A stretch of DNA of 64,000 nt, taken from the IMG/VR virus record IMGVR_UViG_3300035670_000147, positions 1 to 64,000 of that record; one strand, written 5' to 3'. Positions 3,922 to 51,415 of this stretch are shown piece by piece (within the stretch, counting starts at the first letter, position 1; each line of letters starts with the position of its first letter). Origin of the DNA: a virus. A program made the position numbers and the translations under genes. The notes under the pieces are model-generated. The model was not told the origin of the DNA, searched no databases, and worked only from the letters and a program-made list of their open reading frames with translations.

Positions 3922-3972
3922 AGATATCGCAACTCTGCCGCCTGTTTTGCAGCCATGGACGGCGCAATAAAT

Positions 3973-8213: not shown

Positions 8214-8459
8214 ATGGAGAGTCTGGCGTTTCTAATTTTTTTATTGTGGTCGGCGGTGTTTCTGGGCGGGCCTGTGGCGTATCTGCTCGCGCTGTATAAG
8301 TGGAACATGCTGGCGCTCTTGGCCGCGTGCACGTCGATTTGGCTGGGCGTGTTCTGGTTTGCCACGATCTACACCGGCTGGAAATATCTGGGCCTGCTCT
8401 CGGCGCTGTTGGGGTTGCTGGCGCTGCTCAAAGTGACGGAAAACTTTTATGACAAGTAG
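8214..8459 (+). CDS. small multi-pass membrane protein
   Basis: About three hydrophobic helices; GAGG RBS. Confidence 0.6.
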   Translation: MESLAFLIFLLWSAVFLGGPVAYLLALYKWNMLALLAACTSIWLGVFWFATIYTGWKYLGLLSALLGLLALLKVTENFYDK

Positions 8460-17757: not shown

Positions 17758-18023
17758 CACTCCCCTACGAACGAACGCGGGCTGTCATTCACGCCGTCGA
17801 TTTTTTGACGCGGCTTGTGAGTCCGTACAACGAGCGCGGCATCAAAAAGATACCGAAAGAGGTGCGGCAAGAAGCCCTGCGGGTGTTGCGGCACTTTCCC
17901 CGGCCCTACGACTTATACGAAGCCGCGAAAGCCGCCCCTGATGTGTTCGACTCTCAAGAATTATTACGCTATGACGAAGAGCAACAACAAAAATGGCTCG
18001 TTAAACAACCGCATGAAACGTAA
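17754..18023 (+). CDS. BPSL0761-like small phage protein
   Basis: [11 protein letters not shown]...LRHFP pattern. Confidence 0.65.
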
Positions 18024-18052
18024 GGTATACTTAAGTTTCACGCGGAGGAGTT

Positions 18053-18418
18053 ATGGATATTTATGACATCTTGGCTGTCGTTTTTGTCGTTGTATTTGGC
18101 GCTGGTTTTCTTGGCGGTTATCTTTGCGCACGCCTTGATTACCTCTATGTCCGTCTCCGGGAGTGGCACGAAGGCGCCAGTCAAATTCCGCAAGCGACGG
18201 GATTCTTCTCGGAGCGCGCCAGTTCGTCCTCGCGGCAAGCCAAAACCCAAGCCCGCGCGGTTGCAGAAAAAATCGACATCGACACGCGCACGGTCGTCAC
18301 GGAAATCAACACGGCGGGCATCCAAAAAGGCTCAGAAGTAGAAATGGGCAAAACGACCGCAGCGCAAGATACAATTAACGAGTCAGTTTCTCGGCTGGCG
18401 CAATTAAAAGGAAAATAG
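18053..18418 (+). CDS. N-terminally membrane-anchored protein (possible actin partner)
   Basis: GGAGGAG RBS; N-terminal TM helix; two genes upstream of the actin-like gene. Confidence 0.65.
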   Translation: MDIYDILAVVFVVVFGAGFLGGYLCARLDYLYVRLREWHEGASQIPQATGFFSERASSSSRQAKTQARAVAEKIDIDTRTVVTEINTAGIQKGSEVEMGKTTAAQDTINESVSRLAQLKGK

Positions 18419-18419
18419 A

Positions 18420-18563
18420 TTGAGTACGCCGCTGCTCGCCGCCGTTGGACTAGTGTATTTCTACGTCGCCTGCGAGCAGTGGTGGAAGGGCAATACGGCC
18501 GGCTTTGCGCTGTTCATGAATTACGGCTGTGCCAATATCGCATTAATCTGGTATATGAAATAG
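18420..18563 (+). CDS. 47-aa membrane protein
   Basis: TTG start; MSTPLLAAVGLVYFYVACEQWWKG...YMK*. Confidence 0.5.
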   Translation: MSTPLLAAVGLVYFYVACEQWWKGNTAGFALFMNYGCANIALIWYMK

Positions 18564-18572
18564 GAGAGCATC

Positions 18573-19607
18573 ATGGCTAAAGGACTCGACGTCGGAACTT
18601 CTTTTATCGTGCTGGCCTCGGACTCAGACGCCCCGATTAGTTACACCAGCGACGACAAGTTCGGGTACGTCAAATACACCGATTTCCGCGACGCCTTTTT
18701 CGTCATTAAGCCTACGACGCCAGTCGCCACGAAGATGATTGAAAAGGGCTTGCAGGGAAAAGTGTTCGTGAAAGACACGGACGGCTCATTTATCATTCTC
18801 GGTCAAGACGCGATCGAAAAAGCCATCGAGCGTAACGAGTCGGCCAAGCGCCCCATGTATCGCGGCGTTGTAAGCCCCAAAGAAAAAGAAGCGAAGCGCG
18901 TGCTGGCCTACATTCTCCAGCAGGTGTGCGGCCAAGCCAGCGAGCCGGACGAAAAGTTGGTGTTCTGTATTCCGGCCCAGCCCGTCGATCAAGAAGACGA
19001 CGAGTTTGATGTCGGATATCACGAAGATGTGGTCAAAACCGTGCTGCAGGGCCAAGGGTACAGCGCGCGGGCGATCAACGAGGCGGAAGCCCTGTGCTAC
19101 TCGGAGTTGGAGAACGACGATTACACTGGCGTGGCGCTGTCGTGGGGCGCCGGCATGGTGAACTGCTGCGTCATGCTCAACGGCGAGCCCACGGTGACGT
19201 TCTCGACCACGAAATCGGGCGACTGGATCGACCGCATGTCGGGCATTGCGACGGGCGAGCCGGATAGCGTCGTGCAGGCCGAGAAAGAAAATGGCGAGTT
19301 CGTAATTGGCGAACAGAATGACAATCCGGTTCTCGCCGCGGTCAGCGCCTACTATGAGCGGCTGATCGACTACACCACGAAGCAATTGGCAAATGCGCTC
19401 CGCGGGCACAAAGCCTTGCCCAAGTTCAAGAGTCCTTTGCTCGTCGCGTTAGCCGGCGGAACAACGCAGGCGCAGGGTTTTGTGGCGATGTTTGAAAAGA
19501 AACTGGCGGAGAATGAGTTTCCGTTGCCGGTCAAAGAAGTGCGCCACGCCGCAGACCCTTTACACGCAGTTGCCCGCGGTTGTTTGATTGCTGCCAAAGT
19601 GCTCTGA
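18573..19607 (+). CDS. actin-like ATPase (MreB/ParM/FtsA superfamily)
   Basis: Phosphate-1 GLDVGTS, connect NEAEA, phosphate-2 LSWGAG, adenosine LAGGT, C-terminal AVARG. Confidence 0.85.
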   Translation: MAKGLDVGTSFIVLASDSDAPISYTSDDKFGYVKYTDFRDAFFVIKPTTPVATKMIEKGLQGKVFVKDTDGSFIILGQDAIEKAIERNESAKRPMYRGVVSPKEKEAKRVLAYILQQVCGQASEPDEKLVFCIPAQPVDQEDDEFDVGYHEDVVKTVLQGQGYSARAINEAEALCYSELENDDYTGVALSWGAGMVNCCVMLNGEPTVTFSTTKSGDWIDRMSGIATGEPDSVVQAEKENGEFVIGEQNDNPVLAAVSAYYERLIDYTTKQLANALRGHKALPKFKSPLLVALAGGTTQAQGFVAMFEKKLAENEFPLPVKEVRHAADPLHAVARGCLIAAKVL

Positions 19608-19691
19608 TTTTTGCCACGCAGATAGACGCGCCCATCGACCCTTGGTACGATGGGCGCTTTCTTTTTTGAGGCGCGGAGCAAGGACGGCGTT

Positions 19692-20147
19692 ATGCGCAAG
19701 CAGGCTTTTGATGGAATTATTATTGCACACCTTGGCAACACAGATGGGCGGCAACCGGAGTTAGAAAACACGCTGCCGTATATTCAAAAAGCGTTAAAAG
19801 AAGGCTGGCACGTTTGCGTCGATGTCGTATTTAAATACGGGCAATTTCTGTTACCGCACGCCCGCGGCCACTATGCCGCCCCGCCGGCCCTGCTTTCTAA
19901 GCAGCGTGTTTGGAGCCGCGCCTTTGACGCCGACACCGTCGACGCGTTGTGCAACATTGGCGCCCATTGTTTTTTACATAGCGACAATTTTATGTCGTTA
20001 ACAAGCGCGCAGTTTATTTTTACATTGCCGCCACATGTGCTTTCACCCCGATCGATCGCTATGTTTCCGGAAACAACTAGCGACGACTGGTTAAAAAATT
20101 TTGAGCCAGCGGGGCTATGCAGCAACGAGCCGCGCCGGTATATCTAG
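19692..20147 (+). CDS. glycerophosphodiester phosphodiesterase-like protein
   Basis: IIAHLGN...ENT...ALKEGWHVCVDV pattern. Confidence 0.6.
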   Translation: MRKQAFDGIIIAHLGNTDGRQPELENTLPYIQKALKEGWHVCVDVVFKYGQFLLPHARGHYAAPPALLSKQRVWSRAFDADTVDALCNIGAHCFLHSDNFMSLTSAQFIFTLPPHVLSPRSIAMFPETTSDDWLKNFEPAGLCSNEPRRYI

Positions 20148-20208
20148 TCTCGTTCTTTGACAATTTGCCCGCACACGCTACCGGTCAAACCCCGGTAGTT
20201 TGTATAAT

Positions 20209-20442
20209 TGGTGTGTACCGTAAGTTGACCGTGGTGGTCGGTCGGTTAGGGTTGGAGCCAACGCAGGGATGCGGCAGCGACAACATGGTTTCGTGGTCAG
20301 GTTTAGTCGTGAACACGATCGGAGGCGCGGCGAATACCACACAGGGCGAAATTCCTTGCCCTCGAAAGTTGCCGTGAAGCCTTGATTTTTATCAAGGTCG
20401 GACCCGCGGAAAGGGGATCGCGGGGGCTTGCGGTACACACCA
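20209..20442 (+). ncRNA. candidate structured ncRNA (about 230 nt), family unknown
   Basis: 18-bp closing stem 20209-20226/20425-20442 with G-U pairs, many internal hairpins, TATAAT just upstream, T-run downstream. Confidence 0.6.
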
Positions 20443-20481
20443 TTTTTGACAAAAGAAACGACATTTACTGGTTTACGGTCT

Positions 20482-20847
20482 ATGCTCGATGATTTTATTG
20501 CATCTTTATCCGTGTTTGCGGCCTCGTTCGGCGTTTCGGCGTTCGCGGGGTTGGCGACCCTTTTGCGTTTCAGCCGCAAACTTTCTAAACTAGCGATTAC
20601 CAGCGCAATGCTGAATTCGGGGTTTATGGGCCTCGCCATTTCGTTGATTTGGTACCAAAACTACCGAGAAGCCGCGAACATTCATGGGTTAATTGGTATT
20701 TGTGTCCTTGCCGGCATGGGTGGTTCCACGCTGACCGACGTTTTAATTTCTGTGCTGTCGGGCGCCGGCATCAAAGTCGTCATTAATCACGAGAGGGACC
20801 GCGATGAACTCCACTGCCCCCACGACAGCGAGCGATCCAATGATTGA
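20482..20847 (+). CDS. putative holin (LydA-like)
   Basis: Three TM segments, GLAxLLR and LAGMGG patterns, charged C-terminus. Confidence 0.6.
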   Translation: MLDDFIASLSVFAASFGVSAFAGLATLLRFSRKLSKLAITSAMLNSGFMGLAISLIWYQNYREAANIHGLIGICVLAGMGGSTLTDVLISVLSGAGIKVVINHERDRDELHCPHDSERSND

Positions 20848-21007
20848 CCAACACGTGCGCAATCAGATGAGTTTAATGGCGTGGGTAATGACATTTTTGT
20901 GCGGGTGGGTTATGTTTCTTTCAGCGTACGTGTGTGTAGCATGCCACCGAGCCGAGGCTAACGATACCGCAACGACAAAAACGACCGCCGTGACAGCCCG
21001 GCACTAA
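20804..21007 (+). CDS. small single-pass membrane protein
   Basis: One TM segment; overlaps the end of the holin gene. Confidence 0.5.
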   Translation: MNSTAPTTASDPMIDQHVRNQMSLMAWVMTFLCGWVMFLSAYVCVACHRAEANDTATTKTTAVTARH

Positions 21008-21025
21008 AACTTTTGCGGGTTTGCC

Positions 21026-22948
21026 ATGGATGGCTTCTCTATTCTTGACGGCGTGTGGCGGAAACCGCTGACGAGCCAGCGCGAATACCACGTCGGCAAC
21101 GCGATTGGGTGGCTGGCGCGCACAGAAAAACAAGCCGCCACGCAACACGCCCTCGCCGGCCGGCTGTATGTGGCGAAAAGCGGCTGGCTACTCCTCTCGG
21201 TTCCGAACGCGCTGGTCCGGGGCGTCTACGACGCGATGACCGCCCCCGGCGCCGAACTTCCGCTGGCGGGCACTATGAATGTGCCCAACGTAGCCAGCGA
21301 TGTCTTGAACGCGCATATTTCGGTCATGACCGCCGAAGAAGTCAAAAAGATCGGCGCTGAAAATATCAATGAGCGCGGGCACATGGTCGGCTACTCGCTG
21401 GGCCACCTAAAAGAAATCACGCCGAGGAACGTTGCCGGCGTGAGCAAGGTCTGGGCGCTGCAGGTCTCGTCGCCCATGCTCTCGGCGATTCGTAAAAGTT
21501 ACGGGCTACAGCCGTTCGTAAATGGCCACCCGTTCCACATTACCGTTGCCGTGCGCCGGAAAAACGTGCTGCAGGCCAATAGCACGCGCAAAGCCGCGGC
21601 GGCCGCTAAAAGCCCGCAGCCCCGTGTGCGCGTCGTCGTGCCGTACAAAGACCAGTATTTGATGGAAACGCTCAATAACTCGAAGTGGCCTGAAAATATC
21701 GGCAAACGGCGATTTATCGGTGGCGGTATCGAAACGGGCGAAACACCAGAACAGGCCGCTGCGCGTGAGTTATTCGAAGAACTCGGCGTGAAGATCAAAC
21801 CGACCGCTTTTCGCGCTTTAGGTAACGATCCGCGCGAAGGATGGCAGCACGAGCATTATCTGGAACTGCCCAAGCACAAACTCAAGCCCGGAAATTTTAA
21901 CGCTACCGTTGGTTCTGACGCCGTGGTCACGCTTTCGCACGGGCTGCCCGAAGGCGACGATTATATGGGGCCAGACATCAAAAAACTGCTTGCTCCTGTT
22001 TTGAAGAAGGCAAATGACCTGCTTCACGGCGGCGCGGCAGACAATATGTCCGACAGTAAATTTCCCAAAGAAGAACTTGCCGAAGGAGCAGAGCATGAGC
22101 GCGAGCACACCGACAATGACCAAATCGCCAAAGAAATTGCCAAAGATCATCTGCAAGAAGACCCGGCCTACTACAAAAAAGTAGAGGCGATTGAAAAAGA
22201 CGCGGCTACAGCAGTGGTGCCGGTACCGCAGCCGCCGAAGCCGCCAGAAATGCGGGAAGATGTAACCGCCCCGCCTGAGATGCCCCCGCCCCCGACAGCC
22301 GACGTCGCGTTTGGTGTTGTCCCGCCGCCGGCTCTCCCGCCATCCGGGCAGCAACTCCAAAGCCCGCAGCAGACCCCAGAGCAAGAAGAGCAAGATAAAC
22401 AAGCAGAGTCTAAGGCGCTCTTGTTAGCCGAACTTCAAGCGGCAAAAGAGCACTCAGATAACAAGCGGTACGAACTAAAAACGCAAATTTTGCGGCGATT
22501 AATGCAACAATCGCCGCAAGACTGGCGTGTAGACGATCCAAAACCCTACCACAAAGGCATTACGCACGGGCCGACCAAGTTTAAGTTTCACGTCGAGCCG
22601 ACAGCGATTCCGGCGTCCGTAAAAGCCGCGGCCCGCCAGCCGCGCAGCGCGTACATGTCGGCGCTCTATAACTCGTACGGTCTGCATCGACCAATTACGT
22701 ACAACTACAACAAAACAGTTGCCGAAAACATTCAGGATCAAATGATGATGGTAAAGCAGCGCGGCGACTTCATGCGCAACGCTAAAATTAATCATCAGCG
22801 ATACATGGCCACGCTCGACCCCAAATACCGGTATGAGTTAGCAATGAAAGCCATGAATAACGAACTCGAAGAAGAGCCGATGGTCGACAAAATGATCGGG
22901 CGGTATGGCGATAGTTTTATGAACACGATTTTTGGGAGGCCGAAATGA
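21026..22948 (+). CDS. multidomain protein: 2H phosphoesterase + Nudix hydrolase + DUF5661-like + others
   Basis: HISV/HITV pair; Nudix box GGGIETGETPEQAAARELFEELG; GAEHEREHT...AKDHL.EDP.YY; domains separated by EKQA, RKAA, KKAN, EKDA, DKQA, VKAA. Confidence 0.8.
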   Translation: MDGFSILDGVWRKPLTSQREYHVGNAIGWLARTEKQAATQHALAGRLYVAKSGWLLLSVPNALVRGVYDAMTAPGAELPLAGTMNVPNVASDVLNAHISVMTAEEVKKIGAENINERGHMVGYSLGHLKEITPRNVAGVSKVWALQVSSPMLSAIRKSYGLQPFVNGHPFHITVAVRRKNVLQANSTRKAAAAAKSPQPRVRVVVPYKDQYLMETLNNSKWPENIGKRRFIGGGIETGETPEQAAARELFEELGVKIKPTAFRALGNDPREGWQHEHYLELPKHKLKPGNFNATVGSDAVVTLSHGLPEGDDYMGPDIKKLLAPVLKKANDLLHGGAADNMSDSKFPKEELAEGAEHEREHTDNDQIAKEIAKDHLQEDPAYYKKVEAIEKDAATAVVPVPQPPKPPEMREDVTAPPEMPPPPTADVAFGVVPPPALPPSGQQLQSPQQTPEQEEQDKQAESKALLLAELQAAKEHSDNKRYELKTQILRRLMQQSPQDWRVDDPKPYHKGITHGPTKFKFHVEPTAIPASVKAAARQPRSAYMSALYNSYGLHRPITYNYNKTVAENIQDQMMMVKQRGDFMRNAKINHQRYMATLDPKYRYELAMKAMNNELEEEPMVDKMIGRYGDSFMNTIFGRPK

Positions 22949-23190
22949 GTTGGCTACCCGACTGGCTCACCCGCCCAAAACCGTCGACACCCAACGTGCC
23001 GATAGATGAACCGGGCCGCACGCCGTGGTTGCGCGTGTGGCGGCTACTTCGCGACGTAAACTTAAAAGATTTGTGGCCGGTTGTTATTAGCGTACCAACG
23101 ATTGTTTTTTTTGCTATCAGCGGTTTTATCGCGTGGGTGTATCTTCTGCTGCGCGCCGTAGTGCTTTTTGTGCGCAAACTCTTTAGGTAA
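22945..23190 (+). CDS. small membrane protein
   Basis: C-terminal TM helix. Confidence 0.6.
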   Translation: MSWLPDWLTRPKPSTPNVPIDEPGRTPWLRVWRLLRDVNLKDLWPVVISVPTIVFFAISGFIAWVYLLLRAVVLFVRKLFR

Positions 23191-23213
23191 CGAAACAGCG
23201 GGGACACGGGATA

Positions 23214-24302
23214 ATGATTGATGTTTCTTTATGGCGGGCTGTTCCAGAGCGCGTTGCGGACTTATTGCCGCGCGCGATAGAAATTGGCCACGCCTACATT
23301 AAAGTTGCCGAACAAACCGGCGACCTCGCCGGCAGCACGGCGACGTGGCTCGTCGATGAAGACGTGCTTGTGTGCTACCGCCCGAACGCGAAACGCGCGG
23401 TCAAATTTGGGCATCTCGATAATGGGCGGTGTTTCCGCATCCGCGATATTAACGACAAACCGGATGTCGAAAAAGAAATTCTGATTAAGAAAGCCGCGCT
23501 GCCCGGCGTCAGCCATGTTTGGGATTTTGCGAACAAAGCCCTGCTCGGCCCAACGCCCCTGTCGAACGCGATTGTGTCCGGTTTAATGCTCGGCGGTTTG
23601 GGTTACGGCGCCGGCACGCTCGCTGAAAACTTGTTTCCGGAAAGATATTTAGAGCGGGGCAAGTTTCGCCGAACGCTTGGGCTGCTCGGCGCTGGCGCGG
23701 GTTTGGGCCTTGGCGCAATGAATGCGCACGCGAACGGCCGCCGTACCGGAAAAGGTTTTTGGTCCGGCCTGATTACGCGCAACGATTCAGATGTGTCGCA
23801 GTACACGCCTGAATCTCGGATTGCAGCCCGCGGCCTAAACGCGCGCGAGCGCCTTGGAATTGCCAAACAGCCGGCCGTAAAAACAAGCGCCGCAGAAACG
23901 GTGAAAGAAAGTTTTCAGCAGTTCCCGTCGCAGTTGCGGCAGCCCGGGCTGTTTGCGCCGATCGTTAACGTGCCGCAATTTAATCAGGCCGCGTGGGGCG
24001 ACGTGCAACGCGGTATGCACACTAATAATTTTCAAAATTACACGCCGCCGCAGTTCGCCGCGGCGACGACCGGTTTAATGACGGGAATTAGCGCGGCACA
24101 ACGGTCGCCGATTATTCGGCCGGTTGACGTCATTCGCGGCATTGCGTCGGCGGGCGTTGGGCTCGCCACGGCGAATCTTGCTGGCCGCACGTTATCGGCG
24201 CTGGCGGGTTTAACACCGGCGGGACAAGAAAAATTACAGGATATGGGGCTGTGGGGTGGTATGATGCATGCTGTCGTACCCGCAATGTTTGGCAATCGTT
24301 AA
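23214..24302 (+). CDS. Gly-zipper putative virion protein
   Basis: IKKAA and VKTSA motifs; Gly-rich hydrophobic segments. Confidence 0.65.
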   Translation: MIDVSLWRAVPERVADLLPRAIEIGHAYIKVAEQTGDLAGSTATWLVDEDVLVCYRPNAKRAVKFGHLDNGRCFRIRDINDKPDVEKEILIKKAALPGVSHVWDFANKALLGPTPLSNAIVSGLMLGGLGYGAGTLAENLFPERYLERGKFRRTLGLLGAGAGLGLGAMNAHANGRRTGKGFWSGLITRNDSDVSQYTPESRIAARGLNARERLGIAKQPAVKTSAAETVKESFQQFPSQLRQPGLFAPIVNVPQFNQAAWGDVQRGMHTNNFQNYTPPQFAAATTGLMTGISAAQRSPIIRPVDVIRGIASAGVGLATANLAGRTLSALAGLTPAGQEKLQDMGLWGGMMHAVVPAMFGNR

Positions 24303-24312
24303 AGGAGCCGTT

Positions 24313-24687
24313 ATGACTACGTCAAAGAAAAGTGTGGCAACTAAAGTAGAAGAATTGCGCTCATTCGGCGAAGCCGCCGAAGGCACCGCGCTCGAAGGGC
24401 TTGATAAGTGGCTCACGCCAGAGTTTTGGACAATGGCGCTCACCGCGGCTTCTAACATTATTGCCGTACTGGCGCTCGTTGGCTGGCTCGACCACTCTCA
24501 AGTTGAAACTGTAACCAAAGCCGTCACGGCCTTAATTGGCGCCGTTGAGGTTATTTTGATCAACGGGTTGCTGGTCTGGAAGTACCTGTCCGGCCGACAG
24601 GAGATCGCGAAGCAAATTATGGCGTCGCGGTTGCGGATTCGCGAAGAAGTTGAGTACGCAAAATTGCAAGCGTTAAAATCTAGGTGA
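24313..24687 (+). CDS. two-TM membrane protein (holin-like)
   Basis: AAGGAG RBS; two TM helices. Confidence 0.6.
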   Translation: MTTSKKSVATKVEELRSFGEAAEGTALEGLDKWLTPEFWTMALTAASNIIAVLALVGWLDHSQVETVTKAVTALIGAVEVILINGLLVWKYLSGRQEIAKQIMASRLRIREEVEYAKLQALKSR

Positions 24688-24690
24688 TTT

Positions 24691-25104
24691 ATGGACGAGG
24701 GCGCTCTTGCAGACCGGATCAAAGCATCTCCGGCGTTGTCAGCGTTACACGACGACATTGCCAGAGAATTAGCCTTTCATTCGGAACACAGTGTGCAATT
24801 TGATCCGATTACGATCATCATGATTATTTCAATCGTGGTGCAAGTAATCATTCACTGCCGCAACAAGCGCAGTGACGAGCAAATTGCGCAAGATATTCGC
24901 GACATTAGAACGCTTCCGCCGCGCCAATTAATGCGGCTCCGACGGCGTTTAAACAGATTGTGGCGAGACCGTTGCGGGGGTTACGACGCGAGCCCGAACG
25001 CAACGAATCCGCTAATCACTGCGTTGTACGAAGTAAGCGAGCGCGCAGACGACGAAACTATTAGTGAACTTTTACTGCTGGCGCGTCAGAATGAAAATGG
25101 GTAA
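24691..25104 (+). CDS. membrane-associated hypothetical protein
   Basis: FDPITIIMIISIVVQVIIHC hydrophobic segment. Confidence 0.65.
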   Translation: MDEGALADRIKASPALSALHDDIARELAFHSEHSVQFDPITIIMIISIVVQVIIHCRNKRSDEQIAQDIRDIRTLPPRQLMRLRRRLNRLWRDRCGGYDASPNATNPLITALYEVSERADDETISELLLLARQNENG

Positions 25105-25109
25105 GAAAT

Positions 25110-25937
25110 ATGGCACGGAAGCCGAAACAGACAACTGAAAGCAAAAACGTCATTCCAACGAGTCAGGCGTTAAAGTATTTGTTCAACCTTGGATATTTCG
25201 GAAAAGACCCGTGGTCGAAGGTTCGGTCAATACGCGGCAAGGAACTGGAAAAGGCCATTGCTGCGTATCAAGAGTTTAACGGGATTGAGCCGTGCGGGTG
25301 TGTAAACGACGTGACGGCCCACCGATTCAATCGGCGGCGGTGCGGGCTGCCGGACTTCGGGCTCACAGACCCGAACGGCGAGCCGTGCAAGTGGCCGATG
25401 AAAAACATTACGTACTATCACGAAATTAAAATGCCGGGATTGAGCGACGAGCAGGTTCGTGAGGCGTATGACGTCGCGTTCAGTCAGTGGGCCGAGGTTT
25501 GCAACATTGAACCGACCCGCGTTGACAGCCCGGCTCGTGCCAACATTTATGCGCGTTCCGGGACCGGCCGAAAAAATCATCTCGATAATCGCGGCGGCAC
25601 ATTAGCGTGGAGTGAGTTACCGTGCGGCGTTCATGAAACTATTCAGTTAGACCAGATGTACGACGAGGCTGAGCCGTGGTCGTTTAACATGGCTATCGCA
25701 GTGATGTGTCACGAACTCGGACACGCGCTTGGCCTGCCGCATTTAAACGATGGTAATTTAATGGCCCCGTACTACGACCCGAATGTGACGGCGCCGCAGA
25801 AAGATGATATTAAAGAAATCGTAAAGTTATACGGGAAACGCGCGCAAAAGTACCCCATTACGAAAGACGCGTCGCTAAAAATTGGCGGCACAATCGTAAT
25901 TAACGGTCGCCCGTATGTACTCGTGCCAAAAACCTGA
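25110..25937 (+). CDS. matrixin-family (M10) metalloprotease with PG-binding-like prodomain
   Basis: AIAAYQEFNGI..G (PGBD-like), cysteine switch RRCGLPD, HELGHALGLPH, Met-turn LMAPYY. Confidence 0.9.
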   Translation: MARKPKQTTESKNVIPTSQALKYLFNLGYFGKDPWSKVRSIRGKELEKAIAAYQEFNGIEPCGCVNDVTAHRFNRRRCGLPDFGLTDPNGEPCKWPMKNITYYHEIKMPGLSDEQVREAYDVAFSQWAEVCNIEPTRVDSPARANIYARSGTGRKNHLDNRGGTLAWSELPCGVHETIQLDQMYDEAEPWSFNMAIAVMCHELGHALGLPHLNDGNLMAPYYDPNVTAPQKDDIKEIVKLYGKRAQKYPITKDASLKIGGTIVINGRPYVLVPKT

Positions 25938-25969
25938 TAGAATCATACGCGTCTTGCAAGGAGATAATT

Positions 25970-26251
25970 ATGACCCAGTTTCAAATGCTTGCACTTGGTT
26001 TATTTCTCGGCGTCACGGCTGTCGCCTACCGTAAAGAACTTGTTTCTTTGGCGAAAGCCCTGCTGAAGCGCGGCGGCGTTGAAACCCCCGCTGTACAGCA
26101 GTCGATCGCCGTGACGATCGTCGACGATCTTGTGTCTGTAACCGAACTCCGCGACAAATTGGCCGCAGAGGATTGCCCGCAGGGTGTTGAGGCGTGCACA
26201 AATTTACTGCGCGTAATCGTCGAACACATCCCGCCGGCAAAAACCGTCTGA
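25970..26251 (+). CDS. N-anchored small protein
   Basis: GGAG RBS; N-terminal TM. Confidence 0.65.
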   Translation: MTQFQMLALGLFLGVTAVAYRKELVSLAKALLKRGGVETPAVQQSIAVTIVDDLVSVTELRDKLAAEDCPQGVEACTNLLRVIVEHIPPAKTV

Positions 26252-26275
26252 TAACCCCGATCGGGAGTAATTTCA

Positions 26276-26725
26276 ATGAAAAAGTTAGTTTGGGTCGCCG
26301 GTTTGTTGCTTATTGTGGCGCTCTTATACCCGAACGGGATTTCTCTGCCGACGCCGTCTCCGGAGCCCGTACCCGTTCCGGCGCCGGACGACGTTGTTGA
26401 CACGAATCCCGAAATTGTTTCTCTCCTCGCCAACGCGACAGCGGAAGATAAGCAACGCATCGCCGGCACGTACGAGGGTATGCTTCGGGTTTTTACGCGC
26501 GACAAAGGCACCCGCGTGAAGACGACCGAGCAGTGGGCCGATTTTCAGGCAAACACATTGCAGTTAGCGATTGATACGCCCGGTAAATATCCGGGACTAG
26601 ACGTTGCGATTGAAAATGTGTTTAAGACACAACTTGGCACAGACGATGTGCTGCCGACAAATCCTGAAACGCAACAGCAGATTAACAAGGCTTGCCGAAT
26701 TATTATCGCTTCGGCGCGTAAATGA
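26276..26725 (+). CDS. exported/membrane-anchored protein with Pro linker
   Basis: Signal/TM segment followed by PTPSPEPVPVPAP. Confidence 0.7.
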   Translation: MKKLVWVAGLLLIVALLYPNGISLPTPSPEPVPVPAPDDVVDTNPEIVSLLANATAEDKQRIAGTYEGMLRVFTRDKGTRVKTTEQWADFQANTLQLAIDTPGKYPGLDVAIENVFKTQLGTDDVLPTNPETQQQINKACRIIIASARK

Positions 26726-26895
26726 TTTGGTGGCACACATTTGCGATAGGTGGTTCCATGACTGGGATCGATCCCTTTCTGGCAGCATTTGTTATTTTGT
26801 GGTGCCTGTTTCTTTTTTTTGTTATCATAGGCAGTGTGTTGCCGCAGCGTCCTCTAACGCCGCGGTTGTCTGTTTTTGAGCAAAGGAGAGAGTCT

Positions 26896-27276
26896 ATGGC
26901 TGACGTTTTAACTTACGCTGTTTCTGCCGCACCGGTCGCTGAAGGCGACGTTGTGACCCGCGAACTCAGCGTGGTTATCAACGGAGTGGAACAACCTGTT
27001 GTTTCTTTTCCGGGTTACGCGGTCGATCTCGGCACCGTGGAGGCGCCGCAGGATTCTGAAGTAGTATTACGGCTTGTCGACGTCGATGACGCCGGCAACC
27101 GATCCGAACCGGCTGAAGTAACGTTCGTCGCTGTCGATACGCTGCCGCCGTCCGTTCCGGGCGCGCTCGGCGTGGCGCTGGTCGGCGAAAAGACAGTCGC
27201 TGACGAGGTCGTCGATGAAGTTGTCGACGAAGTCGTGGACGGCGAAGAGTCGAACGAAGACGTTACGGGTGCGTGA
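26896..27276 (+). CDS. Fn3/Ig-like acidic protein
   Basis: AAGGAG RBS; VDDAGNRS...DTLPPSVPG motif; an in-frame upstream extension with a TM segment starts at 26722. Confidence 0.6.
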   Translation: MADVLTYAVSAAPVAEGDVVTRELSVVINGVEQPVVSFPGYAVDLGTVEAPQDSEVVLRLVDVDDAGNRSEPAEVTFVAVDTLPPSVPGALGVALVGEKTVADEVVDEVVDEVVDGEESNEDVTGA

Positions 27277-27294
27277 CGATTAAAATCGGTTAAC

Positions 27295-27322
27295 GCCCCT
27301 GCCGCCGAAAGGCGGCGGGGGC
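27295..27322 (+). terminator. strong GC hairpin with GAAA loop (terminator or stabiliser)
   Basis: GCCCCTGCCGCC-GAAA-GGCGGCGGGGGC; weak U-tract. Confidence 0.45.
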
Positions 27323-27345
27323 TTAACCCCAACCACAATCTACTT

Positions 27346-28371
27346 ATGGCTGACGAAGAACTGTTTTTTGAAAACGTATACGACGTTGTCGAGGCGTACG
27401 AAAAAGGGTTTATCGGCGCCTACAACGACCCCGAAGCCGACGCCCAATTGTGGGCAGAAGTCCGGGCCGCCGGCGGCATCCCAGACGGCGCGATGGCTTG
27501 CCAAGCCTACGGGCTCGAAAATAGCGGCAAAGGCAAACTCAGTTTGCCGGTACTAGAAATTGAAGCGCTGTACCCCAGTTGTTTGCCCGGCGGCGCACAA
27601 GGCCGCGGCGACTGCGTCAGTTGGTCGACGCGGAATGCCTGTCTCGGCACAATGTGCTGCGAGATTACAAGCGGCAAGCCGGACGAAGTTAGCGGCCGGC
27701 TGGAGGGCGCTCCGGAAGTCAGCGACGTCGCGCGCTTAAACGGCGTTTTATCGACGGAAGCGTTTTACAATTGGCGCCGGCACGGCGGCGACGGCTGGAC
27801 ATGTTCGGCCGCGGCCCGAGTGGCGTTAAAAGAGTCTGGCTTGTGGCTGCGCAAGAAGTACGAATCTATTAACGTCGATATGACGCAGTATTCGTCGCGC
27901 AACGCCGGCATTTACGGCCGGACTACGCCGCCCGAGTCGTGGCTTGAGATCGGCAAAGACCATTTGGTGCGCACCGCGACGGACGTCGAAGACTTTGAAC
28001 AACTCCGCGATTTGTTAGCCAATGGTTACTGTGTAAGTTCGTGCGGCTCGGAAGGATTTTCCAGTCAACGCAATGAGCATGGCGTCAGTTCGCGTAAGGG
28101 GTCTTGGGCGCACGCGATGGCCTATCTGGGCGTAGATGATCGCGACGCTATTAAAGCCATTTACAACGAGCCGCTCGTGTTAGTCCAGAATTCATGGGGC
28201 CAGTGGAATGACGGGCCTCGGCGAATTTTGGGTACGAATATCGACATTCCCGTTGGTTCGTTCTGGGCTCGCTGGTCAGATATTAAGAATCGGTCGATGA
28301 TCGCGTTCTCTGGCGTAAATGGCTGGCCGCCCAAGAAACTGAAGTCATATGGTGCGTTAGGTAACATTTAG
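27346..28371 (+). CDS. papain-like (C1) cysteine protease
   Basis: QGRGDCVSW (Gln/Cys), WAHAM (His), QNSWG (Asn). Confidence 0.85.
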   Translation: MADEELFFENVYDVVEAYEKGFIGAYNDPEADAQLWAEVRAAGGIPDGAMACQAYGLENSGKGKLSLPVLEIEALYPSCLPGGAQGRGDCVSWSTRNACLGTMCCEITSGKPDEVSGRLEGAPEVSDVARLNGVLSTEAFYNWRRHGGDGWTCSAAARVALKESGLWLRKKYESINVDMTQYSSRNAGIYGRTTPPESWLEIGKDHLVRTATDVEDFEQLRDLLANGYCVSSCGSEGFSSQRNEHGVSSRKGSWAHAMAYLGVDDRDAIKAIYNEPLVLVQNSWGQWNDGPRRILGTNIDIPVGSFWARWSDIKNRSMIAFSGVNGWPPKKLKSYGALGNI

Positions 28372-28461
28372 CGACATATCAGTTTTGATTTGTCGCGCGG
28401 AACGACATAAAAAACTTGTGTCATTCCGCGCAGACGTTCAAATACTTTAGAGGTTTGTGCC

Positions 28462-28737
28462 ATGCTTAACTGGTTATTAGCATTTTTTACCTCGCTTTTT
28501 TCTTGGGGTGGCGTGCAGCAAGCCGAGCCGCCGCAGAAAGATTATGTCGGGTATGTGGCGGCTGAGGCGGCATATTCGGCGCTAATTCCCGTAGCAGAGC
28601 CCACCAAGCCGAAAGTGCCCACAAAAGATTGCACGACCTGTAGGGGCACTGGCCGCGTCCGCACAGGCGACGATCAGGGCTGGACAAAATGCCCGGATTG
28701 CGAGGGTTTGCCGCCGAGTGACGCTATTTCGCAATAA
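28462..28737 (+). CDS. exported protein with CxxCxGxG zinc finger
   Basis: Signal peptide; CTTCRGTG...CPDC. Confidence 0.7.
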   Translation: MLNWLLAFFTSLFSWGGVQQAEPPQKDYVGYVAAEAAYSALIPVAEPTKPKVPTKDCTTCRGTGRVRTGDDQGWTKCPDCEGLPPSDAISQ

Positions 28738-28850
28738 TTGCTCGTCAGCCAATAATTGCGAAATAGAATACCGTTGCCGAAATTCGTAATGTTCGATATA
28801 CAAAACATTACGGAGGCTGACGTTCGATATATGCTACGTAAGGTGCAAGG

Positions 28851-29351
28851 ATGCCCGATCTGAAAAAAGTCACAGGGAAGTGCTATACGTTCCGCGGCCT
28901 CAAGTTTTATGCTGAAAACGGCTTTATCTGCCTGCACGACGAGGATACGGGCGAATTTTACGTCCTGACGCGCAAAGAATTCTTGCTGCGCGCTCAGGCG
29001 CTCTCCGAAGAAGCCGCCCGTCTTCGTCACGTTGCCGCCGCGAACCCCGATAAAGCGTCGTGGCTCTCCGCTGACCGCTCTGAGTTAATTCGCGCGATCG
29101 AGGAGATGATTGCCTGTACTAATGAGGCAAAAGAGCAGGGCGACCGTACAGACCCCGCCGTCGATGCTTGGTTTATGAAGCACCGACCCTCTCGCAAAAG
29201 CAGAATTTCGTTGGTAAGTGCTGCAGATTTTAAGACTGCAATGCCCGGCGCCCTTCCTTTAGGCCGAGATACTGGAAAACATGTCGCTCCAGACTTTACA
29301 ATGGGGGCTAAGCCAAATACCCCTAAAAAGTTAATTCTGCCGGGAGAGTGA
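28851..29351 (+). CDS. hypothetical phage protein
   Basis: 166 aa ORF in operon context. Confidence 0.7.
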   Translation: MPDLKKVTGKCYTFRGLKFYAENGFICLHDEDTGEFYVLTRKEFLLRAQALSEEAARLRHVAAANPDKASWLSADRSELIRAIEEMIACTNEAKEQGDRTDPAVDAWFMKHRPSRKSRISLVSAADFKTAMPGALPLGRDTGKHVAPDFTMGAKPNTPKKLILPGE

Positions 29352-29352
29352 C

Positions 29353-29871
29353 ATGGATTTAGATAGCATTGACGAAAAGACGGCGTTTAAGTTGGGTTTT
29401 GCCACGCGCTGCTTTGAAATGGGCCTCGAACCCGCGCAGGTCAAAGAAGCATTCGAAAAAAGCGCACTTCTTCCTACATTTCTCGGCGGTACCGGCACTG
29501 GAATATTAAGCCGCTTGGCGCCCGGATTAGCCGCCCGCCTCGCCCCGATTGCCGCGCGCACCGGACCTTGGGGTAAATGGATGGCTGGCGGCGCTGCTGC
29601 GGCCGGACTTCCCGCTGCTGGCTTTTTCGCAAGCGGCGCGCCGCTGCAGGCCATAAAAGACATGGGTCTGCTTGGCATCGGCCTCGGGGGCGGCGCGGGC
29701 TTACTGGGCGGCGCAGCGCTCGGCTACGGCAAGGCCAAGTTAGACGAGGAGCCGGTCGATGAGGACGAAATCAAGTCCAAGGAACTCTCAGATACTTATA
29801 AGGCGTACACGGCCCGATTGAAGTCTCAGCGGGCCTATCAGCAGTACCGCAAAGCGCGCGAAAGCGCCTAA
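29353..29871 (+). CDS. Gly-zipper putative virion protein
   Basis: AFKLGF leader, FEKSA motif, Gly-rich TM-like segments. Confidence 0.65.
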   Translation: MDLDSIDEKTAFKLGFATRCFEMGLEPAQVKEAFEKSALLPTFLGGTGTGILSRLAPGLAARLAPIAARTGPWGKWMAGGAAAAGLPAAGFFASGAPLQAIKDMGLLGIGLGGGAGLLGGAALGYGKAKLDEEPVDEDEIKSKELSDTYKAYTARLKSQRAYQQYRKARESA

Positions 29872-29886
29872 CCACGGAAGGGTCTT

Positions 29887-30234
29887 GTGAGTACACGGAA
29901 GTATTTTCAAGAGATAGCAGGCCAGCAGCACGGAAACCATCGCCTTTACTGGCCCGGCACGCCAGAAGGTTTTCCTGTAATCGCGCCGCCGGGAACCGCT
30001 CCAAACCTCAAACAAGAGGAAATGGAGAACATCGACTTCCGGCTCGATTTCAAGTCCAAAATGTTTGAATTGTGGGATACGGCGCAAAAAGCCGAATTTG
30101 ACGACATCAATGATAAAATAGTCAACGGTTGGTACATGCTGCAAAAGCGGTCTGACCACTGGGACGACGAGCACAAACACTTTCGAATCTGGCTGGAGTG
30201 GTGCCAAGTTTACGGCATGATTCCGCCCAAATAA
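29887..30234 (+). CDS. hypothetical phage protein
   Basis: 115 aa ORF, GTG start. Confidence 0.7.
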   Translation: MSTRKYFQEIAGQQHGNHRLYWPGTPEGFPVIAPPGTAPNLKQEEMENIDFRLDFKSKMFELWDTAQKAEFDDINDKIVNGWYMLQKRSDHWDDEHKHFRIWLEWCQVYGMIPPK

Positions 30235-30246
30235 CGGCAGGCGATT

Positions 30247-31263
30247 ATGGGCTACGCAGAAGACGGCAAAGAAATCATAAATAACATTGTGTTGGGCACC
30301 GGAGTCGGGGCCTCGGCGACGGGGCTGTATTATCTGGCCAAGAAACTGCGGAAGCGGTTTGAAGAGCAGTTGGCTAAGAATGCGCCCAATACGCCGGACT
30401 ATCACGACGTAGCCCTCGACGTGCCGAAACTCGAATCGCCTGCCCAGCCGAAGTTAGCATTTGACGCTTACAGTGTCGCGACACCTCTGGCTACTGGCGG
30501 TGCGAGCGCAATTCTGGCGGCGGCCCTGTCGAACAAAAAAAATAAACTTCGTAACGCCGCTATTGCAGGCGCGCTGGGTGCCGGCGCCGGCGCTGGTTTG
30601 AACACCAAGCCCGTGCACGAGTTTGTCGGTAAAAATATCCCCAGTTCTATCTTCCCGTTTCTCGAACCAGTTATGGGCGGCTCGTGGTTTGACCGCGGCT
30701 CTGGTTACAACGCTTGGAACGCCGCTTTGAATGTAGGTGGCGCCGGCCTTGGACTCGCAGGCGGAAAAGCCCTATACGACATGTCGGTCGCTCCGCAACT
30801 TGAGGTCGAGAAAAAGAAGGAGCACTACAACAGCGTAAACGACGCCCGTAAAAAATACTTTGACGCACTGCTGCGTGACGAAGACGACGACAAGAAGAGC
30901 GACAAGAAAGCCTCGGTAAACGACGCGCTCGAAGCCGCGTACACAGCCTACGCCGAAAAGAAAGCCGACTGGAAGGACTACATCAATCCGCTCAAACTGC
31001 CGCTATTAAAGCAGGTCTTTTACGACTTGCCCAACATGTACGCGGCGGCTGGCGTGGGCGCGACATTAGGTGGCGGCCTAATCGGCGGCAAATACATGTA
31101 CGACAAGACGATGGCGGCGTCAAAAGCCAAGAACTTGGCGAAAGCCCTCGCCGCCAAGGAGCGAATGAAAGATGCGCTGCCAGTGTGGGTCGACCCGCAA
31201 GAACTGGCGCAAATTAAAGACGTAGCCGCCGAGAAGGGCCTAGCCGCTGATCAAGGGGTGTGA
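30247..31263 (+). CDS. Gly-zipper putative virion protein
   Basis: PKLA, DKKAS and EKKAD motifs; repeated Gly-rich helices. Confidence 0.65.
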   Translation: MGYAEDGKEIINNIVLGTGVGASATGLYYLAKKLRKRFEEQLAKNAPNTPDYHDVALDVPKLESPAQPKLAFDAYSVATPLATGGASAILAAALSNKKNKLRNAAIAGALGAGAGAGLNTKPVHEFVGKNIPSSIFPFLEPVMGGSWFDRGSGYNAWNAALNVGGAGLGLAGGKALYDMSVAPQLEVEKKKEHYNSVNDARKKYFDALLRDEDDDKKSDKKASVNDALEAAYTAYAEKKADWKDYINPLKLPLLKQVFYDLPNMYAAAGVGATLGGGLIGGKYMYDKTMAASKAKNLAKALAAKERMKDALPVWVDPQELAQIKDVAAEKGLAADQGV

Positions 31264-31265
31264 CC

Positions 31266-44375: not shown

Positions 44376-44383
44376 GGCTAACT

Positions 44384-45841: not shown

Positions 45842-45888
45842 ACAAGACGCTAACTGCTAATAACAGTTAGGCCTTAAAGGAGATAAAC

Positions 45889-47187: not shown

Positions 47188-47204
47188 GTCACGGAGGTTT
47201 ACTA

Positions 47205-51238: not shown

Positions 51239-51415
51239 CAATTCGCGAATAGCGAACGTGTTACGGAACGTAGGTCGAAATTTTTTTTGACCGAGGTTTT
51301 GTAACACCTAAATATCCGGCAAAAACGCGGCATATTTGGTAGTGCACGTTTTTTATTGCCGGTCGAACGCGCATTCTCCGGCAATTTCCTTCCACTGCGC
51401 GGTGGAGAATACCAA

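What the first reader, a model, noticed from the sequence alone, without database searches (positions are those of the whole stretch)
21026..22948. 2H phosphoesterase + Nudix hydrolase on one cleavable chain: candidate injected anti-defence nucleotide-signal degrader
Seen: two H-x-[ST]-hydrophobic motifs (HISV ~21314, HITV ~21536), a canonical Nudix box and a DUF5661-like module, each bounded by K-x-A. Known: the phage anti-CBASS protein Acb1 is a 2H phosphodiesterase, and Nudix enzymes hydrolyse nucleotide alarmones, ADP-ribose derivatives and RNA caps. Inference: enzymes pre-loaded in the capsid that destroy immune second messengers from the moment of injection.
Basis: partly seen in the sequence, partly recalled or inferred. 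Interest (0 to 1): 0.75.

Follow-up and report, generated by a model that had tools for sequence, protein, structure and literature searches.

The report
Modular phage 2H–Nudix polyvalent protein
A core gene of an uncultivated ~200-kb phage strings an intact 2H phosphoesterase, a Nudix hydrolase and several small modules into one protein joined by conserved Lys-x-Ala joints; it fits the already published class of phage "polyvalent" proteins thought to be injected with the DNA, but neither packaging, cutting nor its target has been shown.

Summary
ORF 21026-22948 (+, 640 aa) carries a 2H-SAK phosphoesterase (HISV, HITV), a canonical Nudix box and DUF5661, all above Pfam cut-offs, then a Pro-rich spacer and a conserved two-part C-terminal module. 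K-x-A is not more frequent than chance (6 seen, 5.1 expected). However, 5 of the 6 sites lie in predicted linkers and they are positionally conserved across homologues.

The contig is a 36%-complete fragment of an uncultivated ~200-kb phage clade in which the gene is syntenic and single-copy. Relatives fuse the same 2H clade to a Mu-type portal, to GNAT+InPase+SNF2, or to kinase, LigD phosphoesterase and ligase. DUF5661 and C-terminal module A are fused elsewhere to homologues of the window's RNA polymerase β'-like subunit and helicase, whose phage Arash counterparts are found in virions.

So this is a phage-type polyvalent protein (Iyer et al. 2017). Injection and signal degradation are that class's published, untested hypothesis. 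Support for packaging is circumstantial: the fusions, shared K-x-A enrichment in head-module proteins, and absence of cysteine, as in the RNAP subunits. The 2H fold is confirmed, but Acb1 only ties with other 2H enzymes. RNA-end healing is a serious rival. Earlier scan reports reached the same reading on orthologues in other genomes.

The parts
21026..22948 (+). Whole ORF, 640 aa plus stop; no cysteine; its stop overlaps the ATG of the next gene (ATGA).
21026..21136 (+). N-terminal leader, residues 1-37, ending in K35-Q-A37. Low-confidence structure but conserved sequence (M1, Y21, G24, A26, L30 invariant). Candidate propeptide or targeting segment (inference).
21149..21565 (+). 2H phosphoesterase domain (2H-SAK clade), residues ~42-180; catalytic H97-I-S-V (nt 21314-21325) and H171-I-T-V (nt 21536-21547).
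21590..21598 (+). Junction K189-A-A after the 2H domain. K189 is invariant in both alignments, and homologues often add a second copy of the joint (RGELKAA).
21620..22003 (+). Nudix hydrolase domain, residues ~199-326; Nudix box at nt 21722-21790; pLDDT 82-91 over most of the domain.
22004..22012 (+). Junction K327-K-A after the Nudix domain; K-x-A is present here in 43 of 44 homologues.
22013..22204 (+). DUF5661 three-helix module, residues 330-393, with an H-E-R-E-H string (nt 22094-22108) whose first His is not invariant; ends in K391-D-A.
22205..22375 (+). Proline-rich, predicted disordered spacer, residues 394-450; absent from many homologues.
22376..22636 (+). C-terminal module A, residues ~451-537: two helices plus a three-strand meander, with conserved HSDNKRY / W-x-VDD / G-I-T-H-x-P-T-x-F-x-F-H. 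It is a mobile module found in many other multidomain phage proteins. Ends in K533-A-A (nt 22622-22630).
22637..22945 (+). C-terminal module B, residues 538-640: helical, conserved within the family, function unknown.
22945..23190 (+). Translationally coupled downstream gene (81 aa). Its sequence looks membrane-spanning by eye (no prediction was run). GGGAGG lies just upstream of its ATG inside the 640-aa ORF. Found next to the gene in 49 of 79 related loci.

Best explanation
This is a phage-type polyvalent protein, a core single-copy gene of an uncultivated clade of ~200-kb phages. One cysteine-free chain carries a catalytically intact 2H phosphoesterase, a canonical Nudix pyrophosphohydrolase, the small DUF5661 module and a two-part C-terminal module. 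The parts are joined by disordered linkers that each contain a conserved K-x-A(A/S) joint. The most likely course is as follows. The protein is made with the virion genes, loaded into the head together with the virion RNA polymerase, possibly cut at the K-x-A joints by the head-maturation protease, and delivered with the DNA. Its two phosphoesterases then hydrolyse nucleotide-derived small molecules of host defence: the 2H head acts on cyclic, 2',3'-cyclic or 2'-5' phosphodiester nucleotides, and the Nudix head acts on NDP-X compounds such as ADP-ribose derivatives. Shown: the domains, the active-site motifs, the folds, the conservation, the synteny, the modular shuffling and the position and conservation of the motif. 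Inferred: packaging, cleavage, delivery and the substrate class.
Confidence: 0.4

Rival explanations
1. The protein is an RNA-end healing enzyme of the 'Swiss-army-knife' RNA-repair type. The 2H head opens the 2',3'-cyclic phosphate ends left on tRNA or mRNA by host metal-independent ribonucleases (anticodon nucleases, HEPN effectors). The Nudix head trims 5' ends (triphosphate or NAD-type caps). Sealing is left to a host ligase. The protein could still be virion-delivered.
For: The Pfam model that matches is the 2H domain of 'Swiss Army Knife' proteins. Its origin in the RNA-repair survey of Burroughs & Aravind 2016 is recalled, because that paper is not held. PMC9503650 cites that survey for a 'Swiss-army-knife-like' phosphatase that processes RNA termini. 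Among 19 longer relatives, whose 2H domains are mostly 42-52% identical to this one, 8 carry LigD_N 3'-phosphoesterase, 3 a P-loop kinase and 2 an ATP-dependent ligase domain by the precomputed Pfam column. Rescans confirm 2H+kinase+ligase (P0134) and 2H+LigD_N+ligase (P0177, P0194); in P0137 the ligase match is below Pfam's cut-off (24.1 vs 26.2 bits). By my hand count, 7 of the 120 listed near-length homologues carry a kinase module. CPDase, LigT, CNPase and Usb1 tie with Acb1 in the fold search. RppH-type enzymes are among the Nudix matches.
Against: This protein has no kinase, 3'-phosphatase or ligase domain. The 4 complete related genomes have no PF09414, RtcB or PF01068 ligase. The PF09511 search was also empty, but its control rang nowhere, so it says nothing. 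NAD-dependent ligases were not searched. In polyvalent proteins, neighbouring domains need not share a pathway (abstract passage). Iyer et al. argued that the 2H versions of polyvalent proteins never associate with RNA ligases, but that statement does not hold for the relatives found here.
Confidence: 0.3
2. The protein is an ordinary intracellular, uncut multidomain enzyme that is not packaged. It is made during infection and works on nucleotide pools or on phage transcripts, perhaps tethered to the phage RNA polymerase or to nucleic acid by DUF5661 and module A. The K-x-A strings are then just a conserved feature of flexible Lys/Ala-rich linkers.
For: The K-x-A count is at chance. The gene sits among small membrane-protein genes and an actin-like gene, not in the head module. 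Module A and DUF5661 travel with nucleic-acid enzymes (RNAP beta'-like, SNF2 helicases, ligases), which fits a nucleic-acid- or polymerase-binding role as well as a packaging role. No MPTase or other processing peptidase is present in the protein, and no head protease was recognised.
Against: The K-x-A joints are positionally conserved across homologues whose linkers otherwise vary. The same motif is enriched and conserved in head-module proteins. A relative fuses this 2H clade to a portal protein. The protein is cysteine-free, as are the homologues of virion-detected enzymes.
Confidence: 0.2

Closest known systems
Phage-type polyvalent proteins (Iyer, Burroughs, Anand, de Souza, Aravind 2017, J Bacteriol; PMC5512222; section 20 and passages read)
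   Same: Several unrelated enzymatic domains sit in one phage polypeptide. The 2H domain, Nudix and, in relatives, InPase, SNF2, GNAT and portal fusions are the domains that paper describes. The functional proposal is also the same: delivered with the DNA, degrades defence nucleotides or acts as an RNase.
   Different: There is no zincin-like MPTase, the processing device proposed for the class. The joints instead carry a conserved K-x-A(A/S) motif shared with head-module proteins. The protein is a syntenic core gene of a ~200-kb clade rather than a variable accessory gene. DUF5661 and C-terminal modules A and B match none of the Pfam families in the scan. I could not see the paper's supplementary architecture lists, so this exact architecture may already be catalogued there.
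Acb1, phage anti-CBASS 2H nuclease (Hobbs et al. 2022, PMC9117128: search listing only; structures 7t26/7t27)
   Different: No sequence-level relationship was detected. The structural score ties with RNA-end and 2'-5' enzymes, and Foldseek ranks Acb1 31st. The solved Acb1 chain is only 140 residues; that it is a free-standing cytoplasmic protein is recalled. This one is the first module of a 640-aa chain.
T4 internal proteins and Alt with a capsid-targeting sequence cut by gp21; phiKZ-type head proteins cut by gp175 (T4 Alt packaging is stated in PMC5512222; the cleavage motifs are recalled)
   Same: The logic would be the same: enzymes loaded into the head, trimmed at a short motif by the maturation protease and ejected with the DNA. 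The N-terminal leader ending in K-x-A resembles a targeting propeptide.
   Different: The motif would be K-x-A, not L/I-x-E or S/A/G-x-E. Several enzymes are strung on one chain. Neither a protease nor cleavage has been identified here.
Swiss-army-knife RNA-repair proteins and the healing half of fungal/plant tRNA ligase (2H CPDase plus polynucleotide kinase); Burroughs & Aravind 2016 (recalled, not held)
   Same: It belongs to the same Pfam 2H clade (2H-SAK). Relatives combine that clade with kinase, 3'-phosphoesterase and ligase domains.
   Different: This protein pairs the 2H domain with Nudix only. No ligase of three testable families is encoded in 4 complete related genomes.
T4 NudE-type phage Nudix enzymes fused to head proteins (PMC9503650, section 3.5.2 passage)
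   Same: It is a phage Nudix domain in a context that suggests head packaging. A weak PHROG match to a portal-protein family covers the Nudix box (phrog_15528, E 0.0027).
   Different: The subfamily is unresolved. Within the family the Nudix module is optional: by my hand count of the Pfam column, 64 of the 120 listed homologues carry it. In some members it is replaced by a different Nudix type.

Membership tests
2H phosphoesterase superfamily | Two H-x-S/T-x motifs | tested here: met
   HISV at 97-100 and HITV at 171-174; H97, H171 and T173 are invariant in 44 and 56 sequences.
2H phosphoesterase superfamily | 2H fold with each motif on a beta-strand of one of two lobes | tested here: met
Acb1 anti-CBASS nuclease family | Specific sequence or structural relationship to Acb1 beyond the superfamily | tested here: inconclusive
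Acb1 anti-CBASS nuclease family | Hydrolysis of 3'3'-cGAMP, cA3 and related CBASS signals | not testable with these tools
   This needs enzyme assays.
Nudix hydrolase superfamily | Nudix box G-x5-E-x7-R-E-U-x-E-E-x-G-U | tested here: met
   Residues 233-255 match the box exactly; Pfam NUDIX E 3.6e-11.
Nudix hydrolase superfamily | Alpha/beta/alpha Nudix fold | tested here: met
   pLDDT is 82-91 over most of residues 200-326. There are 265 Foldseek matches at E<=1e-3, and every listed row is a Nudix enzyme.
Nudix subfamilies (ADPR pyrophosphatase, RppH, MutT, NudC) | Score above a curated subfamily cut-off | tested here: inconclusive
   All 17 NCBIfam hits are far below their cut-offs and cover only the box region.
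Phage-type polyvalent proteins (Iyer et al. 2017) | Two or more domains of disparate activity in one polypeptide of a phage | tested here: met
   2H + Nudix + DUF5661 + C-terminal modules, on a virus record with RNAP, capsid and sheath-like genes.
Phage-type polyvalent proteins (Iyer et al. 2017) | Shares domains and architectural syntax with recognised polyvalent proteins | tested here: met
   Relatives of this 2H clade carry InPase, SNF2, GNAT, SET, Hint-like and peptidase domains. [quoted passage not shown]
Phage-type polyvalent proteins (Iyer et al. 2017) | Fusion to, or neighbourhood with, portal, MuF or head genes | tested here: inconclusive
   One relative is a Portal_Mu-2H-SAK fusion (P0139). 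The window's own gene is not next to the head module, though it lies on the same strand about 8 kb upstream of the homologue of a virion RNAP subunit.
Phage-type polyvalent proteins (Iyer et al. 2017) | Zincin-like MPTase for processing (frequent, not obligatory) | tested here: not met
   No peptidase family appears in the Pfam scan at E<=1. The HEREH string in DUF5661 is not invariant: the first His is Asp in several members, and one member has D...Y.
Phage-type polyvalent proteins (Iyer et al. 2017) | Packaged in the virion and delivered to the host | not testable with these tools
   Only circumstantial evidence is available.
Swiss-army-knife RNA repair proteins | 2H-SAK domain together with kinase, phosphatase or ligase partners in the protein or the genome | tested here: not met
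   The 2H-SAK domain is present, but this protein has no such partner. The 4 complete related genomes have no PF09414, RtcB or PF01068 ligase. Partners are present in other relatives.

The most novel reading that the evidence does not exclude
K-x-A followed by A or S is the cutting motif of this clade's still unidentified head-maturation protease, a specificity I do not recall (no search was made) for any phage protease; in form it resembles the V/L-x-A|S sites of herpesvirus assemblin. The gene would then be a true cargo polyprotein. An N-terminal leader directs it into the prohead, the protease dices it into free 2H, Nudix, DUF5661 and C-terminal pieces, and these cysteine-free pieces are ejected with the virion RNA polymerase to disarm nucleotide-based defences before any phage gene is expressed. 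DUF5661 and module A, which are shared with the RNAP beta'-like subunit and the helicase in sister phages, would be the common tags or tethers of this ejected set.
Probability: 0.25. Interest if true: 0.65.

Novelty: new variant of a known kind. Interest (0 to 1): 0.45.

Why it matters
If the reading holds, a widespread freshwater-type clade of ~200-kb phages carries ready-made phosphoesterases into the cell, so that they act before transcription starts. That would be a concrete, testable case of the polyvalent-protein hypothesis, which still lacks experimental support for its 2H and Nudix members. The conserved K-x-A joints provide an unusually simple proteomic readout: neo-N-termini after K-x-A would show both packaging and processing. 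The absence of cysteine from this protein, the RNA polymerase subunits and the helicase suggests a sequence signature that might pick out ejected cargo in uncultivated phages. If the reading fails, the gene remains an ordinary, well-conserved multidomain phosphoesterase of an already described class. The scan has already reported orthologues of this gene several times in other genomes, so this window adds replication rather than a first sighting.

Tried and rejected
1. Cultured relatives of the gene. Megablast of window 18000-30000 and tblastn of the protein against 50,697 phage records gave no match. Only the RNAP, helicase, capsid and two structural proteins have distant cultured homologues, in phage Arash and Vibrio phages D69, D181 and D148.

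2. Sequence link to solved 2H structures. The profile of 44 homologues hit only Nudix chains, best E 0.0013.

3. Foldseek on the full model saw only the Nudix domain. On the 2H model nothing reached E<=1e-3.

4. Nudix subfamily. NCBIfam gave only sub-threshold hits in the box region.

5. C-terminal domain. The ESM Atlas gave no usable hit. The weak Pfam PDDEXK_7 hit (E 0.012, below its cut-off) was not pursued and is treated as noise. One hit of helical module B was a tape-measure protein (P0183), which I read as coiled-coil or compositional similarity.

6. DUF5661 as a zincin peptidase. I rejected this. The HExxH-like string is not invariant and the module is a three-helix unit of about 55 residues. 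'DUF5661' occurs in 0 papers of the library. A 'longer' search with residues 328-396 found nothing, which is weak evidence only.

7. Head protease. Pfam, PHROG and PDB-sequence searches of the head-module proteins found none.

8. Capsid N-terminal K-x-A (K30-Q-A). The capsid protein is 88-98% identical among the relatives, so conservation of the site carries no information.

9. RNA ligase PF09511. The search was empty, but its control rang nowhere, so it is uninformative.

10. Literature. Burroughs & Aravind 2016 is not held. 'BCSR5 phosphodiesterase' found 0 papers.

11. A large alignment of 60 module-A proteins failed internally. I scanned 9 and then 7 of the 79 hits of 350 aa or more individually instead.

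12. Not used: sequencing-run search, read laying and complex prediction. None would decide packaging or substrate.
Full report
**What is there.** Window 21026-22948 (+) is one 640-residue ORF starting at ATG. Its stop overlaps the ATG of an 81-aa gene (ATGA), which has a GGGAGG ribosome-binding site inside the ORF's end. Pfam finds three domains above their gathering cut-offs:
- 2H-SAK (PF22547): residues 95-180, E 5.1e-9.
- NUDIX (PF00293): residues 218-290, E 3.6e-11.
- DUF5661 (PF18905): residues 350-391, E 3.6e-9.

PHROGs recognises only the Nudix part. The two 2H motifs are HISV (97-100, nt 21314) and HITV (171-174, nt 21536). The Nudix box (233-255) fits the consensus exactly.

The protein collection's own call for this contig (P0004, 521 aa) starts at M120 and would remove the first H-x-S. 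Residues 1-119 are conserved in every homologue, so the long reading is the right one.

**Genome and family.** The window is the first 64 kb of a single 73,293-bp virus record that CheckV rates 36% complete.
- All large ORFs are on the + strand.
- The contig encodes a helicase, multisubunit RNA-polymerase beta- and beta'-like proteins, a weakly recognisable capsid protein and a sheath-like protein.
- The gene has no match among 50,697 cultured-phage records.
- It is common in metagenomes: 437 proteins at E<=1e-3 among the 8000 scored, and 285 relatives in IMG/VR, many on contigs of 193-205 kb, two with terminal repeats.
- In the 79 loci fetched, the neighbourhood is conserved. The upstream 139-aa gene is present in 79/79, the actin-like gene in 74/79, the downstream 362-aa gene in 69/79, the matrixin gene in 62/79 and the RNAP gene in 53/79; the lower figures partly reflect contig ends.
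- Each of 4 complete relatives has exactly one 2H-SAK gene.

**Anatomy.** An alignment of 44 full-length homologues and AlphaFold models give this order:
- a conserved but poorly modelled leader (residues 1-41);
- the 2H domain (~42-180);
- a linker, then Nudix (~199-326, pLDDT 82-91);
- a linker, then DUF5661 (three helices, 330-393);
- a proline-rich spacer (394-450);
- a C-terminal region made of module A (two helices plus three strands, ~451-537) and helical module B (538-640).

Modules come and go within the family. By my hand count of the Pfam column, 64 of the 120 listed homologues carry Nudix and 7 carry a P-loop kinase. Some members have a different Nudix type or a Cys-rich insert between 2H and Nudix.

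**The K-x-A joints.** The six K-x-A sites (K35, K189, K327, K391, K458, K533) are no more than composition predicts: 6 against 5.1 in shuffles, p=0.39. Their placement is not random.
- Five of the six overlap the low-confidence linkers of the model.
- They recur at the same alignment positions in 42/44, 21+23/44, 43/44, 30/44, 14/44 and 36+8/44 homologues.
- The K and A pair is retained in 53% of cells against 34% expected from other K and A residues.
- In 19 much longer and more distant relatives, a K-x-A(A/S) string again sits just before and just after the 2H domain in most cases (read by eye).
- In this phage the motif is over-represented against shuffles in six proteins around the capsid gene: g42441, g44384, g45889, g47205, g49257 and g51356, with p from <0.0005 to 0.036.
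- In two of those proteins the sites are retained above background in five relatives: 74% vs 32%, and 77% vs 51%. These five genomes are related to one another, so these are not independent events.

I conclude that K-x-A is a constrained short motif shared by this protein and head-region proteins. That it is a protease site is an inference. No head protease was found.

**Folds.**
- The full model matches only Nudix enzymes: 265 Foldseek matches at E<=1e-3, best MutT 3hhj at E 7e-6.
- The 2H model (pLDDT 65) has no Foldseek match at E<=1e-3, although its weak top rows are mostly 2H enzymes; Acb1 is rank 31.
The 2H fold is supported; a specific kinship to Acb1 is not.
- Sequence searches find no solved 2H relative, and the Nudix subfamily stays open.

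**What its relatives say.** Of the 19 longer proteins in the 'longer' search, 18 carry this 2H clade. By the precomputed Pfam column:
- 8 carry LigD 3'-phosphoesterase;
- 5 carry InPase;
- 3 carry a P-loop kinase;
- 2 carry an ATP-dependent ligase;
- 2 carry Nudix;
- 1 carries a Mu-type portal.

Rescans confirmed Portal_Mu+2H (P0139), 2H+GNAT+InPase+SNF2 (P0125), 2H+C39 peptidase+Nudix (P0123), 2H+kinase+ligase (P0134) and 2H+Hint+LigD_N+InPase (P0137; its ligase match is below the Pfam cut-off).

The C-terminal part alone finds 407 representative clusters at E<=1e-3. Its module A occurs at any position in proteins of 72 to 1715 residues. Of the 79 hits of 350 aa or more, I scanned 16:
- Three are RNAP beta'-like proteins (P0173, P0174, P0204). 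P0173 and P0174 are 51-52% identical over ~615 residues to the window's g36660 and also carry DUF5661.
- Four are SNF2 helicases. P0170 is 60% identical to the window's g8449 and ends in a Nudix domain.
- Two combine 2H, LigD_N and ligase.
- Two combine 2H and InPase.

This is the shuffling syntax of the polyvalent proteins of Iyer et al. 2017. That paper lists 2H and InPase among the domains found only in the phage type. It proposes that such 2H domains act as RNases or degrade defence nucleotides, and that the proteins travel with the DNA.

**Is it packaged?** There is no direct evidence. The indirect evidence is as follows.
- The nearest cultured phages are Salmonella phage Arash and three Vibrio phages (RNAP 32% identical, capsid 28%).
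- In the Arash paper (PMC10585845, passages read), virion mass spectrometry detects RNAP beta gp206 (the most abundant protein), beta' gp216 and helicase gp217.
- These map to the window's g31260, g36660 and g8449. The K-x-A-rich g44384 maps to the 'structural protein' gp222.
- So the two carrier proteins that sister phages fuse to DUF5661, module A and Nudix have virion-detected homologues.
- The Arash authors caution that abundant enzymes may be carried over; 116 proteins were detected.

A second line of evidence is cysteine (lead from the earlier scan report e1-5810920; tested here).
- At the contig's Cys frequency of 0.93%, this protein should have 5.9 cysteines. It has none.
- The same is true of RNAP beta (13.7 expected), beta' (6.0), the helicase (6.3), g42441, g3955, g30247 and g65969.
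- The capsid, sheath-like, g44384 and other large proteins have normal numbers.
- Within the family, 26 of 44 members are Cys-free, and most of the rest have cysteines almost only in the Cys-rich insert.
- Arash mirrors this only in part: gp206 has 1 Cys in 1525 residues and gp217 has 0 in 472, but gp216 has 4 in 606.

I read the shared absence of cysteine as a possible mark of proteins that must pass the tail and periplasm. This is an inference.

**What does it do?** There are two live readings.
- *Small-molecule degradation.* In favour: the class-level proposal in print; the company of Nudix and InPase; Acb1 and a poxvirus cGAMP PDE among the tied best folds; and the absence of any phage ligase of three testable families in 4 complete relatives (the PF09511 control was silent).
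- *RNA-end healing.* In favour: the Pfam clade itself, and the recurrent kinase, 3'-phosphoesterase and ligase partners in relatives.

I put the injected signal-degrader reading at 0.40, RNA-end healing at 0.30, and an unpackaged, uncut enzyme at 0.20.

**Comparison and novelty.** The protein is a member of a known kind, the phage-type polyvalent proteins. It has three variant features: no MPTase; conserved K-x-A joints shared with head-module proteins; and modules (DUF5661, A, B) that match no characterised family. 'DUF5661' occurs in 0 papers of the library. I could not see the supplementary lists of the 2017 paper, which may already contain this architecture.

Earlier reports of this scan on orthologues in other genomes reached the same reading. 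One further report describes a head protease fused to Nudix, DUF5661-like and 2H modules in another phage. I could not test that claim.

**Verdict.** This is a new variant of a known kind, of moderate interest.

Noticed in passing
window 18573-19607 (+): A 344-aa actin-like protein matches Pfam Volactin (PF25216) over its full length at E 2.2e-58. I recall (not checked) that this family was described from a haloarchaeal actin. The gene is conserved in 74 of 79 related phage loci at 76-94% identity in the 11 of 12 inspected loci that carry it.
   Followed up: partly
window 25110-25937 (+): A 275-aa matrixin-type zinc protease: Peptidase_M10 at E 6.1e-21, with HELGHALGLPH. It has a weak PG_binding_1-like N-terminal part and an RRCGLPD string that resembles the MMP cysteine switch (the switch motif is recalled). 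It is conserved in 62 of 79 loci. It could be a lysis, entry or processing enzyme.
   Followed up: partly
window 3955-6303, 8449-10497, 30247-31263, 31260-35696, 36660-38612, 42441-44375; contig 65969-70168: Seven further proteins of 338-1478 aa contain no cysteine although 3-14 are expected. They include both RNAP subunits and the helicase, whose Arash homologues are detected in virions. Other large proteins have normal cysteine counts. This may be a signature of ejected cargo.
   Followed up: partly
window 42441-47630, 49257-49649, 51356-51949: Six proteins around the capsid gene are enriched in K-x-A against composition-preserving shuffles. Several have a site within their first 35 residues, for example SVKAAAE at residue 25 and LTKAAAA at residue 24. 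None matches a known protease, scaffold or portal family.
   Followed up: partly
window 206-2545 (+): A 779-aa protein is enriched in K-x-A (15 against 8.0, p=0.011) and has 17 cysteines. Its C-terminal ~100 residues match several PHROGs of unknown function at E down to 2e-27.
   Followed up: no
homologues P0024, P0028, P0031, P0033, P0045, P0047 and others (alignment A1, columns ~336-366): A metallothionein-like Cys-rich insert (Y-D-C-x-C-x-G-x-C-x-C-P-x-T-C-x-C...) lies between the 2H and Nudix modules in many homologues and is itself bounded by K-A-A strings. It is absent from the window's protein.
   Followed up: partly
proteins P0173, P0174, P0204 (other phages): RNAP beta'-like subunits are extended in P0173 by DUF4269 and in P0173/P0174 by DUF5661, plus C-terminal module A of the protein studied here. 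Over their first ~615 residues P0173 and P0174 are 51-52% identical to window g36660.
   Followed up: partly
window 57291-60485 (-): A 1064-aa ORF lies antisense to the 1185-aa sheath-like gene at 57264-60821. It is most likely a shadow frame of a G+C-rich gene.
   Followed up: no
window 22945-27276 (+): A run of small proteins lies downstream of the gene. By eye from the translations, they have hydrophobic, Gly-rich or signal-like segments (81, 362, 139, 137, 93, 149 and 184 aa). They surround the matrixin gene and are conserved across the clade. They could form a lysis or an entry/ejection cluster.
   Followed up: no
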